Shown: one piece after another, positions 10,439-51,800 of the stretch
How positions within the stretch are numbered: the first letter of the stretch is position 1
Layout: every line of letters begins with the position of its first letter
Assembly (NCBI GenBank): GCA_963720545.1
Contig: OY970399.1
Coordinates: forward strand, 3,264,001 to 3,328,000
Source: an uncultured Acidobacteriota bacterium
GTDB lineage: Bacteria > Acidobacteriota > Vicinamibacteria > Fen-336
Direction: 5' to 3'
Length of the DNA: 64,000 nt
Notes under the pieces: model-generated
What the model was told of the DNA's origin: nothing
What the model saw: the letters and a program-made list of their open reading frames with translations, nothing else
Database searches by the model: none
Position numbers and translations under genes: made by a program

Positions 10439-11569
10439 TCAGCGCTTCGCGGACGGCACGCCCTCCGCGGCTTGCTGCGGGAATGCACTGGCCGGCAGCG
10501 GCAGGGCGCCCGCCGCGAGCAGCTCCGCGAACGCGGCATCGGCGGCGACCCGGTGGCCGTCCACGTTCCAGTGCGTGTCCGGGGCGAAGTCCCAGTGGGC
10601 ACCCGGCCGCGCGGCGCGCGCGGCGGCGAGGCGCTCGCCGGCATCGAGGAACCGCACGTCCGGTGCGAGCCGCGCCCGCAGCCGTGCGATCGCCGCATCG
10701 TCCTGGCCGCGCGCGCCGACATCGAACGCGAAGAACCGCGCGCCGCTCTTCTCGACGTCGCGGGCGAAGGCACCGAGCAGCGCGGCGGTCAGGCCCACGA
10801 GATCCGCGGGCGCCGGTCGCGAACCGCCGACCTGGAAAAAGGCGAGACCGCGCTGCACCAGCGGATTGCGCGACGAGCGCGTGCGAAACGCATTCCAGAG
10901 GTTCGACTCGCGGCCCAACCACACCTTGGCGCGCTGCCAATGCGTCAATTCGGGCACCGGCTGGTTGTGGACGACGAGTGTGCCGGAAACATCGCCCTCG
11001 AAGTACGGCTTCGGATACATCTTGTATATGAAGTCGCTGCCGTTGCCGTCGAGGTCGTTGTCGCAGACCGCGACCAGCACCAGGTCGGCCTGCATGCGCG
11101 AGCCGAGTTCACGGTAGAGGATGAGCTCCTGGTCGGTGGAGTAGCCGCTCACACCCATGTTGACGACATCCGGGCGGCGCACCGAGGCGGCGCGCAGGCG
11201 GCGAGCGAGCGCCGCGGTGAACAGGTGCTCCTCGTCTACGCCCACTCCGAAGATGAAGGAATCGCCGAACACCAGGACGCGGAACGAGCCGGGCTCCTTC
11301 GCAACCGCAATCTCGCGGCCGCGCAGCCCGAGCGCATTGATGTGAATAGTGCCGCGATCCGGTCCGCCGCGATCATTCTCGCCGACGCTTCCCGCCGCAT
11401 GGAACCAGCCCTTGGATGGGTCCTGGACCCACAGCCCGCGGTCGTCCTCGCCGGGGCGCGGAATGGCGGAAAAGCGCAGGCCGAGGAGGCGTGTGCCGGC
11501 TTCCGCGAGCGCCAGGAGCAGCGCCAGCAGCAGGAGGTTCACGGCGAGGATTCGCAGGCTTCGGCGCAA
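10439..11569 (-). CDS. SGNH/GDSL hydrolase family membrane-anchored protein
   Basis: INALGLRG, FGDSFIFG, NMGVSGYSTDQE, DND, DTHWNVDGH; TTG start inferred 8 nt after TAGACT (the ORF is open to 11647). Confidence 0.85.
   Translation of the reverse strand: MRRSLRILAVNLLLLALLLALAEAGTRLLGLRFSAIPRPGEDDRGLWVQDPSKGWFHAAGSVGENDRGGPDRGTIHINALGLRGREIAVAKEPGSFRVLVFGDSFIFGVGVDEEHLFTAALARRLRAASVRRPDVVNMGVSGYSTDQELILYRELGSRMQADLVLVAVCDNDLDGNGSDFIYKMYPKPYFEGDVSGTLVVHNQPVPELTHWQRAKVWLGRESNLWNAFRTRSSRNPLVQRGLAFFQVGGSRPAPADLVGLTAALLGAFARDVEKSGARFFAFDVGARGQDDAAIARLRARLAPDVRFLDAGERLAAARAARPGAHWDFAPDTHWNVDGHRVAADAAFAELLAAGALPLPASAFPQQAAEGVPSAKR
10461..10484 (-). promoter_or_regulatory. Ada-box-like operator (ATT-N6-GCAA-GCCG-CGGAG) upstream of the 2OG oxygenase
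   Basis: Near-identical motif at the same 47-nt spacing upstream of ada (45419-45442). Confidence 0.65.
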
Positions 11570-11670
11570 GCCCAGCAAGTCTAGTCGGTGCGCGCATCGC
11601 GACCGACGGGCGTTCGGACCCAACCTGTCGGGGGTGTGTGGGACCATGCCCGCACACGTTGGAGGTGGGG

Positions 11671-14052
11671 TTGGCGCAGGCGTTGATCAAGCCGGAAGAC
11701 ACCAGCACGGCGCTGGTGTCGGTGCTGCGAGCGCTCGAGGCGAGCCGCGGTGCCACCGCCGAGCCCACCATCGCGGCGCTGCGGCACTTCCCGGCGCGGG
11801 CCGGGCAGTACGCCGATTTCGCCGACGACGTCGACCCGCGCCTGCGCGAGGTGTTGCGCAAGCGCGGCATCGACAAGCTCTACACCCACCAGCGTGCCGC
11901 TTTCGACGCCGCCCGCCGCGGCCTCAACACGGTGGTGGTCACGCCCACCGCCTCGGGCAAGACCCTCTGCTACAACCTGCCGGTCCTCGATTCGGTCCTC
12001 AAGAATCCCGACACGCGCGCCTTGTACCTCTTTCCCACGAAGGCGCTGGCGCAGGACCAGCTGGCCGAGATCCACGGCCTGGTCGAGGCGCTCGGCGAAG
12101 AAATCGGCACCTTCACCTACGACGGCGACACGCCACAGGACGCGCGCAAGGCCATTCGCAGCCGCGCGCACATCGTGGTCACCAACCCCGACATGCTCCA
12201 CAAGGGCATCCTGCCGCACCACACCAAGTGGGTGAAGCTGTTCGAGAACCTGCGCTACATCATCGTCGACGAACTGCACAGCCACCGCGGCGTCTACGGC
12301 TCGCACGTCGCGAACCTGTTCCGGCGGCTGCACCGGCTGTGCCGCTTCTATGGCTCGAACCCGCAGTTCCTGTGCTCGTCCGCGACCATCGGCAACCCGC
12401 AGCAGCTGGCCGAGGCGCTCACCGGGCGCGAGATGACGCTCATCGACGAGAACGGCGCGCCGCGCGGCGAGCGCTATTTCGCGATCTACAACCCGCCGGT
12501 CGTGAACCTGCAGCTCGGCATCCGCCGCTCGGCGCTGAACGCCGCCAAGGACGTGGCGCTGTCCTTCCTCAAGAAGGGCCTGCAGACCATCGTGTTCGCG
12601 CCCTCGCGGCTCGCCACCGAGGTGCTGCTCACCTATTTGAAGGAAGCGATCGAGCGGGTGCCCGGCTCGGAAGACGTGATCCGCGGCTATCGCGGCGGCT
12701 ACCTGCCGCTGCGGCGCCGCGAGATCGAGCGCGGGCTGCGCGACGGTTCGGTGCTCGGCGTGGTGTCGACGAACGCGCTCGAGCTGGGCATCGACATCGG
12801 CTCGCTCGACGCGGCGGTGCTGCTCGGCTATCCCGGCAGCGTCGCCTCCACATGGCAGCAAGCCGGGCGCGCCGGGCGGCGGCAGTCGGCGTCGGTGGCG
12901 GTGCTGGTGGCGAACTCCACTCCGCTCAACCAGTTCATCGCCAAGAACCCCGACTACTTCTTCGACGGCGCGGTCGAAGAGGGGCGCATCAACCCCGACA
13001 ACCTGCAGATCCTCGTCAACCACCTGAAGTGCGCGGCTTTCGAGCTGCCGTTCTCGCGCGACGAGAAATTCGGCAAGGAGAACCTGGTCGAGATCCTGCA
13101 GTTCCTCGAGGAGCAGGGCGTGCTGCACCGCGCCGGCGACCTGTGGCACTGGACGAGCGAGAGCTACCCGGCCGACGCGGTCAGCCTGCGCAGCGTGTCC
13201 TCGGACAACTTCGTGGTGCAGGACGTCACCGGCGAGCCGCGCATCATCGCCGAGGTCGACTTCGACAGCGCGCCGTCGATGGTGCACGAGAAGGCCATCT
13301 ACATCCTCGAAGGGCGCACCTACTACGTCGAGAAGTACGACCACAAGGAACGCCGCGTGCACGTGCGCGACGCCCAGGTCGACTACTACACCGATGCCAT
13401 CGACTACACCAAGGTGCGCATCCTCGAGCAGTTCGCGCACGAGGTTGCTGGCAGTTCCGACCGCAGCCACGGCGAGGTGCACGTGACGTCGCAGGTGGTG
13501 GGGTTCAAGAAACTCAAGTTCCACACCAACGAGAACGTCGGCTCGGGCGAGCTGCAGATGCCTGAGAACGAGATGCACACCACGTCCTACTGGCTCACGG
13601 TGCCGCGCGCGGTGATGTCGGCGCTGCCCTTCGACCTCGAGGAGCGGCGTGACGGGGTGGTGGCGCTGTCCTACACGCTGGGGCAGATGGCGTCGCTCTT
13701 CCTCATGTGCGATCGCTGGGACATCGGCGTCGCCATCGGCGACAACGGCCAGGGCGAGGCGCGGGTCGAGCGCGGCCTGCGGCGGCTGGCGGCGAACCCG
13801 GCGGAGCTCGCCGCTCCCACCCGCGACGACTACGAGCCGCAGGTGTTCGTCTACGACAACTACCCCGGCGGCATCGGGCTTTCCGAGCCGCTCTACCGCC
13901 TGCACGACCGCCTGCTGCGCGAGAGCCTCGCGCTCATTCGCGGCTGCGCCTGCCGCGACGGCTGTCCGTCGTGCGTCGGCCCGCTCGGCGAAGTGGGCAG
14001 CCGCGGCAAGACGGTTGCGGTCGCTATCCTCGAAGCCTTGGGAGCCGGCTGA
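11671..14052 (+). CDS. mrfA: DEAD/DEAH-box helicase with C-terminal DUF1998 (MrfA/YprA/Hrq family)
   Basis: TPTASGKT, PTKALAQDQ, TNPDMLH, DELH, SATIGNP, STNALELGIDIG, QQAGRAGRR, YDNYPGGIG, CACRDGCPSC; GGAGG SD before TTG 11671. Confidence 0.9.
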   Translation: MAQALIKPEDTSTALVSVLRALEASRGATAEPTIAALRHFPARAGQYADFADDVDPRLREVLRKRGIDKLYTHQRAAFDAARRGLNTVVVTPTASGKTLCYNLPVLDSVLKNPDTRALYLFPTKALAQDQLAEIHGLVEALGEEIGTFTYDGDTPQDARKAIRSRAHIVVTNPDMLHKGILPHHTKWVKLFENLRYIIVDELHSHRGVYGSHVANLFRRLHRLCRFYGSNPQFLCSSATIGNPQQLAEALTGREMTLIDENGAPRGERYFAIYNPPVVNLQLGIRRSALNAAKDVALSFLKKGLQTIVFAPSRLATEVLLTYLKEAIERVPGSEDVIRGYRGGYLPLRRREIERGLRDGSVLGVVSTNALELGIDIGSLDAAVLLGYPGSVASTWQQAGRAGRRQSASVAVLVANSTPLNQFIAKNPDYFFDGAVEEGRINPDNLQILVNHLKCAAFELPFSRDEKFGKENLVEILQFLEEQGVLHRAGDLWHWTSESYPADAVSLRSVSSDNFVVQDVTGEPRIIAEVDFDSAPSMVHEKAIYILEGRTYYVEKYDHKERRVHVRDAQVDYYTDAIDYTKVRILEQFAHEVAGSSDRSHGEVHVTSQVVGFKKLKFHTNENVGSGELQMPENEMHTTSYWLTVPRAVMSALPFDLEERRDGVVALSYTLGQMASLFLMCDRWDIGVAIGDNGQGEARVERGLRRLAANPAELAAPTRDDYEPQVFVYDNYPGGIGLSEPLYRLHDRLLRESLALIRGCACRDGCPSCVGPLGEVGSRGKTVAVAILEALGAG

Positions 14053-14058
14053 GCCGCG

Positions 14059-15045
14059 ATGCTCCTCTCCCGAATCCTCGCCGTCGCCGTCGCTGTCACG
14101 TCATCGGCGGATACGTCATCGGCGGATCGGCTGCTGTTCCCGTCCGATCCGACGATTTCCGTTGCCGGAGGCTCGTTGCTTCGTCCGTTCCTTTTCCGTT
14201 CCCCAGGAGTTGTCGTTGCGTCAGGCCCCACCCGCGCCATCGTCCTCGGCGTCGCGCAAGACGGCGGGTTCCCGCACATCGGCTGCCGCCAGGACGCGTG
14301 CGTCAACGCGCGCCGCGACCCGGCGCTCGCGCGCCGCGTGGCGAGCCTTGGCCTCATCGACGGCAAAAGCGGCCAGCGGTTCCTCATCGACGCCTCGCCC
14401 GATCTGCCGGCGCAAGTGGAGGCGCTCGGCGGCGTCGACGGCATCCTGCTGACGCACGCGCACATGGGACACATCCTCGGCCTGCTGTATCTCGGCCGCG
14501 AGGCTCTCGGTGCGAAGGCCATGCCGGTCTACGCCACCGCGCGCATGGCGGCGTTCCTGCGCGCGAACGGCTTGTGGAGCCAGCTGGTCACCCTGGCGAA
14601 CATCGAGCTGCGGCCGCTCGAGCCGGGCAGGGAGGTGCGCCTCAGTCCGGGTATTGCAGTCACGCCGTTCCTGGTGCCGCACCGCGATGAGTTCACGGAC
14701 ACCGTCGGCTTCCGCATCGCCGGTCCCGCAAAGCGCCTCCTCTACATCCCCGACATCGACAAGTGGAGCCGCTGGCACCATTCGCTGGCCGATGAAGTCG
14801 CCGGCGTTGACGTTGCCCTGCTCGATGGCACGTTCGCCGACGCCTCGGAGCTGCCGGGCCGCTCGCAGGCCGACATCCCGCACCCACTCCTCGGGGAGAC
14901 GCTCGCCGCCGTGCCGGCCGCGCTGCGCTCGCACATCCGGTTCCTGCACATGAACCACACCAACCGCCTGCTCTGGGATGCCGCTGCCGGCGAAGCCATC
15001 GCGCCCGCGCGCGCCGCGCGCCAGGGCGACGAGATCGAGCTGTGA
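14059..15045 (+). CDS. Metallo-beta-lactamase fold protein, PqqB-like, with repeat-derived N-terminal insert
   Basis: LGVAQDGGFPHIGC, FLIDASPD, LTHAHMGH, VPHRDE, YIPDIDKW, LLDGTF, IPHP, HMNHTN. Confidence 0.85.
   Translation: MLLSRILAVAVAVTSSADTSSADRLLFPSDPTISVAGGSLLRPFLFRSPGVVVASGPTRAIVLGVAQDGGFPHIGCRQDACVNARRDPALARRVASLGLIDGKSGQRFLIDASPDLPAQVEALGGVDGILLTHAHMGHILGLLYLGREALGAKAMPVYATARMAAFLRANGLWSQLVTLANIELRPLEPGREVRLSPGIAVTPFLVPHRDEFTDTVGFRIAGPAKRLLYIPDIDKWSRWHHSLADEVAGVDVALLDGTFADASELPGRSQADIPHPLLGETLAAVPAALRSHIRFLHMNHTNRLLWDAAAGEAIAPARAARQGDEIEL
14098..14223. repeat. Palindromic repeat element inserted in frame in the PqqB-like CDS
   Basis: 14113-14163 matches the reverse complement of 30132-30182 at 42/51 ungapped positions; 14195-14207 matches rc of 30117-30129 at 13/13; flanked by CGTCA direct repeats 120 bp apart; 15-bp tandem duplication at 14098-14127. 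Confidence 0.8.
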
Positions 15046-16427
15046 CCACGAGCCTGCTCGACCGGCTGAAGCGGCTGCAGCGCGACGAACATGCCGATGA
15101 CAGCGCCGGTGGCGGCTCCGGTGACAGCGGGCGCGGTTCCACTCCTGGCGCACCCGGCGATTCGCTACGCCGGCTGGAGCGCGCGCTCGGCACCGAAGCC
15201 GACGACAATCTGTCGCTCAAGGTGCGGCTCGAACGCCTGGTGGCGGTGGCGGCGGCACAGCGGCCGCGGGTCATGCCGCAGGCAGCGCCGCCCGTGCGCC
15301 TCGAAGAAGCGGTGGCCGGGACCCGCCGCGAGAATGCGCGCGGCGAATACTTCGTCATCGACCACGACGCGCACGTCGACACCTTGCACGGCACGCAGTC
15401 GCTGAGCCGCTTCCGCGCGCGCCGGCCGGGCGAAGTTCGCCTGCTCACCGGCGACCCGCAGCACCACGACTTCGACATCTCGAAGGCGGTTTTTCTCGAC
15501 ACCGAAACCACCGGCCTCTCGGGCGGCACCGGCACCGCCGCCTTTCTCATCGGCATCGGCTGGCTCGAAGGCGACCGCTTCCGCGTGCGGCAGTTCTTCA
15601 TGCGCGACTATCACGAAGAGGCGGCGCTGCTGCAGGGCCTCAGCGACGACCTGGCGCGCTTCGCGAGCCTCATCACCTACAACGGCAAGATGTTCGACGT
15701 GCCGCTGCTGGAGACGCGCTACCGGCTGGCGCGCACCCGCTTTCCGTTGCAGCGCCTGCCGCATCTCGACTTGCTGCACCCGGCGCGGCGCCTGTTCAAG
15801 CTGCGCCATGAGTCGTGCAAGCTCACGCACCTCGAGTCGCAGCTCCTGGGCGTGCGCCGGCACGGCGACATCCCCGGCCACGAAATCCCCTGGGTCTATT
15901 TCGAGTACGTGCGCCGGCACGATGCCCGCGCCATCCAGAAGGTGCTCGAGCACAACCGCCTCGACATCGTCTCGCTCGCGGCGCTCAGCCTGCACGCCTG
16001 CGACTGGCTGGAGACGGACGATGCCGACGACCCGCGCGACGCGTACAGCCTGGGCCGGGTGCTGCACCGTGCCGGCCGCCACGACCGCAGCCAGGCCCTG
16101 TTTCGCCAGGTCGCCGATTCGAGCGACGCGGTGCTGCGGGTGCGCGCATTGCTGCGGCTCGCGCGCCACGCGCGGCGCAGCGGCGAGCTGGAACGGGCGG
16201 CGGAGTTGTGGACCGAGGCGGCCGCGGCCGGCGAGCCGTTCGCGCATCGCAGCCTCGCCATCCATTTCGAGCGCCGCGTGCGCGACTACCCGCGGGCGGT
16301 GGCCGCGGCCGAGGCCGGACTGGCGCGCGTCACCGCTGGCGCCACGCCGGCCGATCGCCGGCTGCGCGCCGACTTCCACAAGCGCCTGGCCCGGCTGCGC
16401 CGACTGATGGCGGGAACCGCCGCCTGA
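15042..16427 (+). CDS. mrfB: RNase H-like (DEDD) exonuclease with C-terminal TPR-like helices (MrfB/YprB)
   Basis: [46 protein letters not shown]; located downstream of mrfA; GTGA overlap with the previous gene. Confidence 0.85.
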
Positions 16428-29518: not shown

Positions 29519-30055
29519 TTGAAGAAGTCCGCCGGCCGCAGGAAGAAGCCCGCCAGCCGCAAGCAACCGCGCCGCCCGCCGCTACGCACTGGCAGGGGAC
29601 TGGTCGCCGCCCGCCGCTCGAAGGTCCACGGCACCGGTGTCTTCGCGTTGCAAGACCTCGCGCGCGGCACCGAGATCATTCACTATCTCGGGACGCTGCG
29701 CACCCATGAAGACGTGGACCGCGAATACGACGCGCTCGCCGACAGCGGCCACACGTTCTACTTCACGCTCAACGCGAAGTACGTGATCGACGCCGGCATC
29801 CGCGGCAACGCCGCGCGCTTCATCAACCACAGCTGCCGGCCCAACTGCGAAGCGGTCACCGAAGACGACCCGGGCGGCAATGCGCGCCGCGACCGCATCC
29901 TCATTCGCGCGATTCGCAGGATCAGGGCCGGCGACGAGCTCGGCTACGACTACGGCATCACCGTCGACGGCCCGATCACAGCCCGCGAACGCGCCTTGTG
30001 GGCCTGCCACTGCGGCTCGCCCAATTGCAAGGGCACATTGCTAGCCAACAAGTAG
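29519..30055 (+). CDS. SET domain protein-lysine N-methyltransferase with post-SET
   Basis: SKVHGTGVFA, RFINHSCRPNC, ELGYDY, CHCGSPNCKG. Confidence 0.92.
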   Translation: MKKSAGRRKKPASRKQPRRPPLRTGRGLVAARRSKVHGTGVFALQDLARGTEIIHYLGTLRTHEDVDREYDALADSGHTFYFTLNAKYVIDAGIRGNAARFINHSCRPNCEAVTEDDPGGNARRDRILIRAIRRIRAGDELGYDYGITVDGPITARERALWACHCGSPNCKGTLLANK

Positions 30056-30060
30056 GCCGA

Positions 30061-30182
30061 CATCGACGGATTGGACGCTAGCGACCGCCAATCCGTCGAT
30101 GACGCGGACGCAAGCGCCTGGGGAACGGACTAACGGAAATCGACGGATTGGACGCTAACGACCGCCAATCCGTCGATGACGT
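30061..30182. repeat. Tandem pair of palindromic (REP-like) units, period 77 bp, between convergent genes
   Basis: CATCGACGGATTGG-N13-CCAATCCGTCGATG (30061-30101, 14-bp stem) and a near-identical copy at 30139-30177 (13-bp stem). Confidence 0.85.
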
Positions 30183-31051
30183 CAACTTGCGTTGAAGGTG
30201 TCGCAGGCCTTGAGGTCGCCGGCTTCGAGGCCGCGGCGGAACCAGCTGGTGCGCTGCGCCGACGAGCCGTGGGTGAAGCCCTCGGGATTGACGTGGCCCT
30301 GCGCCTGTTTCTGGATGCGGTCGTCGCCGACCGCGGCCGCTGCGGTCATGCCTTCCTCGATGTCACCCGGTTCGAGGTTCGACGACGTCGCCTTCGCCCA
30401 GACACCGGCGTAGCAGTCGGCCTGCAGCTCGAGGCGCACCGACAGCTCGTTCGCCATGTCGGGCCGTGCCTGCTGCGCGCGCCGCATCTGCGCTTCGGTG
30501 CCGATGATCTTCTGCAGGTGATGGCCCAGCTCGTGCGCGAGCACATACGCCTGTGCGAAGTCGCCGCTGGCGCCGAAGCGGGTGCGCAGCTCGTCGTAGA
30601 AGCCGAGGTCGACATAGACCTTCTCGTCGACCGGGCAGTAGAACGGTCCGCTCGCGGCCTGCGCGAAGCCGCACTCGGCCCGCGTCTGGTCGCGGAACAG
30701 CACCAGCGTGGCATCGCGATACTGCAGGCCGAATTGCGGCAGCACGCGCGCCCAGGTGGCCTGCGCGTCGTCGAGCACGAAGGAGATGAAGTGCACCAGC
30801 TTCTCTTCTTCCGGAGTCGTCTGCACCGGCGCTTGCGGCCCGGTCGTTTGCACGGCGCCGCCGCCACCCCCGGCACCGGGGTCGAGCAGCGCCAGAAAGT
30901 TCTGCTTGAAGACCAGGCTCAACACGATCAGCAGCGCAAGCGTGCCGCAGCCGACCGAACGGCCGCCGCCGGGAAAGCCGCCGAAACCGCCGGCACCTTC
31001 GCCGCGCCGATCCTCGATGTTGTCGCTGACGCCACGGTCCTGCCAACGCAT
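30182..31051 (-). CDS. Neutral zinc metallopeptidase (YpfJ family)
   Basis: SDNIEDRRG, GPFYCP, GDFAQAYVLAHELGHHLQ, ELQADCYAG, FTHGSSAQR; GAGGAG SD before ATG 31051. Confidence 0.92.
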   Translation of the reverse strand: MRWQDRGVSDNIEDRRGEGAGGFGGFPGGGRSVGCGTLALLIVLSLVFKQNFLALLDPGAGGGGGAVQTTGPQAPVQTTPEEEKLVHFISFVLDDAQATWARVLPQFGLQYRDATLVLFRDQTRAECGFAQAASGPFYCPVDEKVYVDLGFYDELRTRFGASGDFAQAYVLAHELGHHLQKIIGTEAQMRRAQQARPDMANELSVRLELQADCYAGVWAKATSSNLEPGDIEEGMTAAAAVGDDRIQKQAQGHVNPEGFTHGSSAQRTSWFRRGLEAGDLKACDTFNAS

Positions 31052-51700: not shown

Positions 51701-51800
51701 TTGCGCTTGCGCTCGTCATCGACGGATTGGCTGTTCGTTGCGTCCGGACGCAGTCGATTGCCGATTGGTCCGATTCAGTCGCTCCCCAAGCAGTCGCGTG
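51701..51800. repeat. Degenerate copy of the palindromic repeat family (inverted relative to 30061-30182)
   Basis: 51714-51731 CGTCATCGACGGATTGGC is an 18/18 match to rc of the 30 kb unit; looser similarity continues on both sides (GCGCTTGCG before; GTCGATT.CCG.T..GTCCG..TCCCCA after); lies between convergent genes. Confidence 0.7.

What the first reader, a model, noticed from the sequence alone, without database searches (positions are those of the whole stretch)
14098..14223. Palindromic intergenic repeat inserted in frame inside a protein-coding gene (RPE-like)
Seen: residues 14-54 of the PqqB-like ORF (TSSADTSSADRLLFPSDPTISVAGGSLLRPFLFRSPGVVVA) have atypical codon usage, and their DNA is a copy of the intergenic repeat at 30061-30182. 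14113-14163 matches rc(30132-30182) at 42/51 ungapped positions, and TCCGTTCCCCAGG (14195-14207) matches 13/13. The hairpin is kept, with a compensatory pair change (GGATTGG/CCAATCC becomes GGATCGG/CCGATCC). The insert is bounded by CGTCA direct repeats (14099, 14114, 14219) spaced 120 and 105 bp, both multiples of 3; removing 120 bp gives MLLSRILAVAVAVTSGPTRAIVLGVAQDGG. The insert also carries GGAGG-N4-TTG (14176) in frame, a possible alternative start that would skip the hydrophobic leader. Known: Rickettsia palindromic elements insert in frame and add peptide segments to proteins. Inference: an undescribed mobile palindromic element family that colonises CDSs in this lineage and could change protein localisation.
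Basis: partly seen in the sequence, partly recalled or inferred. Interest (0 to 1): 0.85.

Follow-up and report, generated by a model that had tools for sequence, protein, structure and literature searches.

The report
Intergenic hairpin repeat inside a gene
A copy of a small hairpin-forming DNA repeat that normally sits just behind genes in this soil acidobacterium lies in frame near the start of an enzyme gene and most likely adds about 40 floppy amino acids, a known kind of event seen here in a new bacterial lineage.

Summary
Window 14098-14223 is a copy of a dispersed hairpin-plus-tail repeat. Profiles built without it score it at E=4.5e-14 and 1.2e-8.

The genome holds 71 units. Of these, 33 abut a stop codon. 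Only this one lies inside a gene with a conserved domain downstream.

The host is an MBL-fold ("PqqB-like") gene between an MrfA-like helicase gene and an RNase_H_2/TPR gene. None of 19 related loci read carries the insert, and all 19 have a hydrophobic leader.

Translation most likely starts at ATG 14059, so the repeat is read as residues 14-55. The evidence:
- The MLLSR start is shared with two relatives.
- The leader's base composition is coding-like.
- Three of five strain differences in the leader are synonymous, and strain indels of -18 and +6 nt keep the frame.

The CGTCA repeats and GGAGG-N4-TTG are parts of the element, not target duplications or an evolved start. No Y1 transposase was found. 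The family does not generally colonise coding sequence.

Verdict: a new REP-like family, noted earlier in this scan, with one RPE-like in-frame insertion. Interest is modest.

The parts
11416..14052 (+). Upstream gene: MrfA-like helicase, stop TGA at 14050-14052
   Evidence: Pfam DEAD, Helicase_C, WHD_HRQ1 and MZB domains; ORF list
14059..14097 (+). Codons 1-13 of the MBL-fold gene: hydrophobic leader MLLSRILAVAVAV, most likely the true start
   Evidence: GC at codon positions 0.77/0.38/0.85, log-odds +0.13 per codon. MLLSR start shared with P0001 and P0003. 3 of 5 strain differences are synonymous third-position changes. Modelled as a helix, residues 2-14.
14098..14112 (+). Extra half arm: exact 15-nt tandem copy of 14113-14127 (encodes TSSAD twice)
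   Evidence: Sequence. Half-arm copies also in intergenic copies. A strain contig in run X5 lacks 18 nt here.
14118..14156 (+). Hairpin of the repeat: arms 14118-14130 and 14144-14156, loop 14131-14143; 12 of 13 pairs
14157..14223 (+). Tail of the repeat, rich in CCGTTCC-like motifs, ending in GCGTCA
   Evidence: Alignment with 6 intergenic copies of the subtype; profile match
14167..14178 (+). GGAGG-N4-TTG, in frame; part of the element consensus and a possible second start
14224..15045 (+). MBL-fold core of the host gene, with stop codon
   Evidence: Pfam Lactamase_B_2, E=1.1e-27. Matches in 13 of 19 family genomes begin at query residue 52-57. High-confidence model from residue 59.
15042..16427 (+). 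Downstream gene: RNase_H_2 plus TPR
   Evidence: The three-gene order is kept in 12 of 13 loci from the same taxonomic family.
30059..30182 (-).
51715..51799 (+). Third, degenerate copy in the window, its right arm replaced by another palindrome

Best explanation
A full unit of a lineage-restricted REP-like repeat landed about 46 nt behind the stop codon of the helicase gene. The unit consists of a half arm, a 13-bp-stem hairpin and a CCGTTCC-rich tail. Just behind a stop codon is the family's usual niche. In this tightly packed operon that spot is the 5' coding part of the next gene, between its hydrophobic leader and its MBL-fold core.

The unit is 126 nt long (a multiple of 3) and open in all three forward frames. 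It falls in a stretch whose length varies among orthologues. It was therefore tolerated and is translated from ATG 14059 as a roughly 42-residue disordered spacer (residues 14-55).

Shown:
- The segment belongs to the repeat family.
- It is absent from the 19 related loci read.
- The reading frame is intact.
- Strain indels keep the frame.

Inferred:
- It is translated.
- The event was old and came with loss of some original leader DNA.
- A related species later lost the hairpin part and kept the tail as part of its hydrophobic leader.

How the family spreads is unknown. No Y1 (RAYT-type) transposase gene is present.
For: Identity as an element copy:
- Profiles built without it score it at E=4.5e-14 and 1.2e-8.
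- 0 of 300 shuffles reach the 42/51 match.
- It is colinear with intergenic copies over the half arm, hairpin, GGAGGCTCGTTGC and tail.

The family:
- 71 units.
- 63 of 71 best hairpins have no mismatch, and 6 stem variants are compensated on both arms.
- 33 of 71 abut a stop codon, at -6 to +4 nt.

Absence from orthologues:
- 19 of 58 other genomes of the taxonomic family have the gene, with at most 66% identity. 13 of those 19 matches begin at query residue 52-57.
- None of 19 loci read upstream shows the insert peptide, and all have a hydrophobic leader.

Translation from 14059:
- P0001 (82% identity, 87%) and P0003 (about 70%) also begin MLLSR.
- The leader has coding-like base composition.
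- Soil-metagenome contigs show 5 substitutions in 14059-14097: 3 synonymous at third positions, one I-to-V and one L-to-R.
- Strain indels of -18 nt and +6 nt, and P0001's 21-residue difference, all keep the frame.
- P0001 has SLPFLG...FLFRSPGIVVES, which equals the in-register translation of intergenic copies.

Not an assembly error: contigs from separate studies bridge both junctions.

Tolerance: the model gives a helix at residues 2-14, pLDDT below 50 for 16-38 and 44-51, and a confident MBL fold from residue 59.
Against: - There is no direct evidence of expression or of the protein's N-terminus.
- Only 13 codons lie upstream of the element, and their codon score is near zero when summed (-0.8).
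- The element carries GGAGG-N4-TTG in frame.
- Di Nocera et al. (PMC3733652, section 15 read) warn that many REPs in annotated 5' ends are really extragenic.
- The strain evidence rests on single low-depth contigs (depth 3-5) and on few events. The +6 indel duplicates a 6-mer and so keeps the frame automatically.
- P0001 is known only as protein, so the 'tail without hairpin' reading is back-inferred.
- Removing the element leaves a leader shorter than in any relative. The event was therefore not a clean insertion.
Confidence: 0.78

Rival explanations
1. The element is extragenic. The gene now starts at TTG 14176, using the element's GGAGG, or elsewhere downstream. The repeat sits in a 123-nt spacer behind the helicase gene, like most family members. 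The open frame from ATG 14059 is then a relic or chance.
For: The family's niche is just behind stop codons (33 of 71). GGAGG-N4-TTG is in frame. All three forward frames of these elements are mostly open, so an open frame costs little. The literature gives a caution about REPs at 5' ends (PMC3733652, section 15).
Against: A TTG start would give a protein without the hydrophobic leader that all 19 related loci read have. The MLLSR start is conserved in relatives at 70-87% identity. The leader has coding-like composition and mostly synonymous strain differences, and indels keep the frame. The GGAGG-TTG motif is an element feature also present in intergenic copies, not something evolved at this gene.
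Confidence: 0.12
2. Both starts are used. ATG 14059 gives a leader-bearing form with the spacer, and TTG 14176 gives a leaderless form. The element would then create two differently located isoforms.
For: Both start contexts exist: ATG 6 nt after the helicase stop, and GGAGG 4 nt before the TTG.
Against: No data on expression. The 4-nt spacing is short (general knowledge). The motif is inherited from the element.
Confidence: 0.08
3. The resemblance is chance, an assembly error, or the gene segment is the source of the repeat family rather than a recipient.
For: None found.
Against: Profile E-values and shuffles. Contigs from four runs of separate studies carry the same junctions. There are 70 other copies, and the 19 related loci read lack the segment.
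Confidence: 0.02

Closest known systems
CGTC-tagged REP superfamily (Di Nocera, De Gregorio and Rocco 2013, PMC3733652; abstract, passages and section 15 read)
   Same: Short stem-loop repeats in many copies, mostly just downstream of ORFs and sometimes overlapping the stop codon. No dedicated transposase. Occasional copies lie inside ORFs, including at N-termini.
   Different: That paper reports CGTC repeats from five phyla, and Acidobacteria is not among them. Here every hairpin carries a 30-80-nt CCGTTCC-rich tail. Only 23 of 71 units show CGTC directly before the arm.
Rickettsia palindromic elements, RPE (Ogata et al. 2000 and 2002; seen only as cited in PMC3733652 and PMC10969869, originals not held)
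   Same: A palindromic repeat of about 100-150 nt inserted in frame, adding a peptide to a protein that probably still works.
   Different: Per PMC10969869, nearly half of R. conorii RPEs lie in ORFs. Here the figure is 1 of 71. The lineage is unrelated, and sequence relatedness to RPEs was not tested.
E. coli and Pseudomonas REP/BIME with RAYT transposase (as described in PMC3733652; otherwise recalled)
   Same: Extragenic palindromes forming arrays behind genes.
   Different: No GTAG tag, and no Y1 transposase (PF01797) in the genome.
Intragenic MITEs that make in-frame fusions (review PMC10969869, passages read)
   Same: A non-autonomous repeat adds coding sequence on insertion.
   Different: I recognised no terminal inverted repeats or target-site duplication. 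The CGTCA repeats are internal to the element.

Membership tests
REP-like repeats, CGTC-tagged class | Short palindromic stem-loop present in many copies in the genome | tested here: met
   71 units. 63 of 71 best hairpins have no mismatch, mostly 13-bp stems.
REP-like repeats, CGTC-tagged class | CGTC tetranucleotide at one end of the stem-loop | tested here: inconclusive
   23 of 71 units have CGTC just before ATCG. 12 have AGTC, where a TAG stop overlaps the position. The copy in the gene has CGTC.
REP-like repeats, CGTC-tagged class | Mostly extragenic, close to the 3' ends of ORFs | tested here: met
   33 of 71 units start -6 to +4 nt from the stop of a coding-like frame. Only 1 of 71 is internal to a gene with a conserved domain downstream. 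My gene calls are crude, covering 72% of the genome.
REP-like repeats, CGTC-tagged class | No dedicated transposase flanked by the repeats | tested here: met
   0 matches to PF01797 in the genome, while the control rang in 6 of 14 known genomes. Other transposase families were not searched.
Rickettsia palindromic elements (RPE) | In-frame insertion in an ORF whose product keeps its fold | tested here: met
   126 nt, no stop. Invariant MBL residues are kept. The model is confident from residue 59. Translation itself is inferred.
Rickettsia palindromic elements (RPE) | A large share of copies inside genes | tested here: not met
   1 of 71, and no further intragenic copy among weak profile hits.
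Rickettsia palindromic elements (RPE) | Sequence relatedness to RPE families | not tested
   No RPE sequence was at hand. No Rfam family matched at the curated threshold.
MITE | Terminal inverted repeats and target-site duplication | tested here: not met
   The unit has one hairpin at one end plus a tail. The CGTCA repeats are element parts that are also present in intergenic copies and at array junctions.
Intrinsic terminator | GC-rich stem, loop of 3-8 nt, then a T run | tested here: not met
   0 sites at 13800-14500 and 0 at 29800-30500. Loops are mostly 11-15 nt.
PqqB (host gene) | MBL fold within a pqq operon | tested here: inconclusive
   Pfam Lactamase_B_2, E=1.1e-27. The name comes from a source's automatic annotation. 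The neighbours are a helicase gene and an RNase_H_2 gene, not pqq genes. The rest of the genome was not searched for pqq genes.

The most novel reading that the evidence does not exclude
The hairpin part behaves as a cassette that is gained or lost in frame within the leader of an exported or membrane-anchored enzyme. With it (this genome), the hydrophobic stretch is cut to about 8 residues and followed by a spacer. Without it (P0001), the element tail completes a hydrophobic stretch of about 20 residues. Together with the internal GGAGG-TTG start, the repeat could therefore switch the protein between anchored, secreted and cytosolic forms among closely related soil strains.
Probability: 0.1. 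Interest if true: 0.6.

Novelty: new member of a known kind. Interest (0 to 1): 0.35.

Why it matters
It extends the known event of a palindromic intergenic repeat read as protein to Acidobacteriota (class Vicinamibacteria by the names). The family is otherwise strictly extragenic.

It offers a natural series for asking how such inserts are tolerated and reshaped in a signal or leader region:
- full element in this genome;
- -18 nt and +6 nt strain variants;
- a hairpin-less form in a related species.

It is also a practical warning for annotation. Start-codon choice and "atypical codon usage" at this gene are explained by a repeat, not by horizontal transfer or error.

Tried and rejected
- **DNA of the close orthologue P0001.** The one metagenome scan returned 80 loci, the best segment at 61% identity, and none was P0001's contig. 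The 58 other genomes of the taxonomic family reach only 66% identity. The hairpin-loss reading therefore rests on protein alone.
- **Search with residues 1-62 only.** 163 candidates, none scored.
- **Expression.** No RNA holder is listed among 22 runs.
- **Empty-site allele.** None was seen in the contigs of four runs. Contigs drop rare variants, so this says little.
- **An unexplained joint.** Run X1 shows a joint that goes back 67 nt with 23 extra letters. It may come from another element copy, so I did not use it.
- **Rfam.** 0 matches at curated thresholds over the window. Only far sub-threshold chance hits appeared around both sites.
- **Terminator and promoter scans.** Nothing.
- **Y1 transposase.** None.
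- **Weak profile hits up to E=20.** 12 extra places. Only one is convincing (genome 937666-937755), and none is a new intragenic copy.
- **Pattern scan of species genomes.** 3 loci. One of them (L113) copies this genome's 2119158-2119310 locus. It sits about 4 kb from the end of a contig labelled Actinomycetota, and that genome lacks the MBL gene. I read it as a probable mis-join and did not use it.
- **Ogata 2002 (PMC186582).** Not held.
- **Literature searches.** (REP and stop codons) gave nothing usable.

Full report
**1. The observation**

The window is part of a single 4.09-Mb contig. Homologues of the host gene are named Vicinamibacteria by their sources.

- 14113-14163 pairs with 30132-30182 over 51 nt at 82%, the longest pair shown among 343 inverted pairs in the window.
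- The 42/51 match was reached by 0 of 300 dinucleotide shuffles, whose maximum was 31.
- A profile of 52 other units scores the copy at E=1.2e-8 against the whole genome. A profile of the six intergenic copies of its own subtype gives E=4.5e-14.
- The insert has flat base composition over codon positions (0.60/0.62/0.60) and a negative codon score. The rest of the gene shows 0.75/0.49/0.90.

**2. The repeat family**

Iterated profile search gave 138 hits on both strands, which reduce to 71 non-overlapping units in about 45 loci.

- A unit is a hairpin with a mostly 13-bp stem and an 11-15-nt loop, followed by a tail rich in CCGTTCC-like motifs that ends in GCGTCA. Units form arrays with a period of about 75-82 nt.
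- 63 of 71 best hairpins have no mismatch.
- Six stem variants are compensated on both arms. The GGATCGG/CCGATCC pair of the copy in the gene is also found at genome 929400.
- 33 of 71 units begin -6 to +4 nt from the stop codon of a coding-like frame, often as TAG followed directly by TCATCGACGG.
- The copy in the gene belongs to a minor subtype (arms ATCGGCGGATGGG / CCCATCCGCCGAT) with six intergenic copies. In this subtype the tail begins with TTCCGTT, G, one variable base, then CGGAGGCTCGTTGCCGTTCC. Two of the six copies carry an extra half arm before the hairpin.
- No Y1 transposase gene was found.
- The repeat DNA was found in 0 of 58 other genomes of the same taxonomic family.
- A pattern for the hairpin found only 3 loci among the species genomes held. 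One of them looks like a mis-joined piece of a near relative.
- Earlier reports of this scan on neighbouring windows had already described the family as REP-like and stop-codon-abutting. My census agrees with them.

**3. The host gene**

ORF 14059-15045 has an MBL-fold domain (Lactamase_B_2, E=1.1e-27). It lies between an MrfA-like helicase gene and an RNase_H_2/TPR gene. This order is kept in 12 of 13 loci from the same taxonomic family.

- 19 of 58 other genomes of that family have an orthologue, at no more than 66% identity. 13 of the 19 matches begin at query residue 52-57.
- In the 19 related loci whose upstream frame I read (L002-L020), none carries the insert peptide. All have a hydrophobic N-terminal stretch 15-45 residues before the conserved RAVVLG motif.
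- The distance from the helicase end to the MBL core is about 180 nt here, against 85-150 nt in 11 relatives (L002 is excluded, with 686 nt).
- Removing all 126 nt would leave about 55 nt, less than in any relative. The event therefore probably replaced some original leader DNA.

**4. Is the insert translated?**

This is the critical point. The literature warns that REPs in annotated 5' ends are often extragenic (PMC3733652, section 15).

Evidence for a start at ATG 14059:

- The closest protein, P0001 (82% identity, 87%), and P0003 (about 70%) also begin MLLSR followed by a hydrophobic run.
- The 13 leader codons have coding-like composition, 0.77/0.38/0.85.
- Contigs of soil metagenomes from separate studies carry the locus. 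Five substitutions fall in 14059-14097: three are synonymous third-position changes, one is I to V and one is L to R (codon positions worked out).
- One contig lacks 18 nt in 14087-14113. Another has 6 extra nt behind 14173. P0001 differs by 21 residues. All of these keep the frame.
- P0001 reads ...AVVHSLPFLGTFLFRSPGIVVESG.... SLPFLG is the in-register translation of intergenic copies of the subtype, and FLFRSPG-VV matches this genome's tail. A species about 13-18% diverged in protein therefore seems to keep the element tail, without the hairpin, as part of its leader.

Evidence against:

- There are no expression data; no RNA run is listed.
- Only 13 codons lie upstream of the element.
- The contigs are of low depth.
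- P0001 is available only as protein.
- All three forward frames of these elements are largely open, so an open frame is weak evidence.

I put translation from 14059 at about 0.8.

**5. Consequences**

The AlphaFold model has mean pLDDT 84. It shows a helix for residues 2-14, no structure and pLDDT below 50 for 16-38 and 44-51, and a confident MBL fold from residue 59. The insert thus behaves as a disordered spacer between leader and core.

The hairpin here has one mismatch and is no more stable than shuffled sequence (z = -1.2). The intergenic hairpins fold at z = -4.3 and -4.6. This fits relaxed selection on the structure once the copy sat inside a gene.

The insert cuts the hydrophobic run to about 8 residues. 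Whether export or anchoring changes is untested.

**6. Comparison with what is known**

Intragenic REPs, including N-terminal ones, are reported for GTAG- and CGTC-tagged families in several free-living bacteria and for Rickettsia (PMC3733652: abstract, passages and section 15 read). In-frame fusions by small repeats are reviewed in PMC10969869 (passages read).

This family fits the CGTC-type picture in its position, its lack of a transposase and, partly, its tag (23 of 71). It differs by its obligatory tail and by its phylum. It is not RPE-like in frequency, with 1 of 71 units intragenic.

I found no printed description for this lineage. The search found 7 papers holding the three terms and listed 6, none with these terms in its title; I opened none.

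**7. Verdict**

The reading "RPE-like in-frame insert" is essentially right for this one copy. The wider claim of a CDS-colonising family with CGTCA target duplications is not supported. This is a new member of a known kind, of modest interest.

Noticed in passing
Whole genome, e.g. window 30059-30182: 33 of 71 units start -6 to +4 nt from a stop codon, often sharing bases with it (TAG followed directly by TCATCGACGG; TAATCGACGG). This suggests either targeting of gene ends or selection for a role in the 3' untranslated region. Earlier reports of this scan noted the same.
   Followed up: partly
L118:1-1860 (genome 935922-937781): An ORF with DAO and Rieske domains runs on for 117 residues past the end of the Rieske domain (residue 502 of 619). 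It passes through one or two units of the minor subtype before the first in-frame stop. This may be a repeat-encoded C-terminal extension or a lost stop codon.
   Followed up: partly
L120:1-1080 (genome 2005142-2006221, minus strand): A pyrroline-5-carboxylate reductase ORF continues 82 residues beyond its last domain. It ends inside a repeat unit read antisense.
   Followed up: partly
L119:1-1965 (genome 2619873-2621837): The last roughly 17 codons and the TAG stop of a 654-residue ORF lie inside a repeat unit, so the element supplies the C-terminus. The ORF has no Pfam match.
   Followed up: partly
window 14098-14127: An exact 15-nt tandem duplication encodes TSSAD twice. A strain contig in run X5 lacks 18 nt here, so the duplication is polymorphic in soil populations.
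   Followed up: partly
window 11416-16427: An MBL-fold gene with a hydrophobic leader sits between an MrfA-like helicase gene and an RNase_H_2/TPR gene. The order is kept in 12 of 13 loci of the same taxonomic family and in none of the 11 loci from other families of the order. The source name 'PqqB' does not fit this context.
   Followed up: partly
window 51715-51799 and many genome loci: Other repeat families mix with this one, for example the perfect palindrome ACTGCGTCCGGACGCAGT and a CCGTTTTCCCGAGGAGCTCAACGCTTGCGC motif. Together they form mosaic clusters.
   Followed up: no
L113:1-512: A contig labelled as an Actinomycetota MAG carries, about 4 kb from its end, a near copy of this genome's 2119158-2119310 repeat locus. 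The rest of that genome lacks the MBL gene. This is probably a chimeric contig end.
   Followed up: partly
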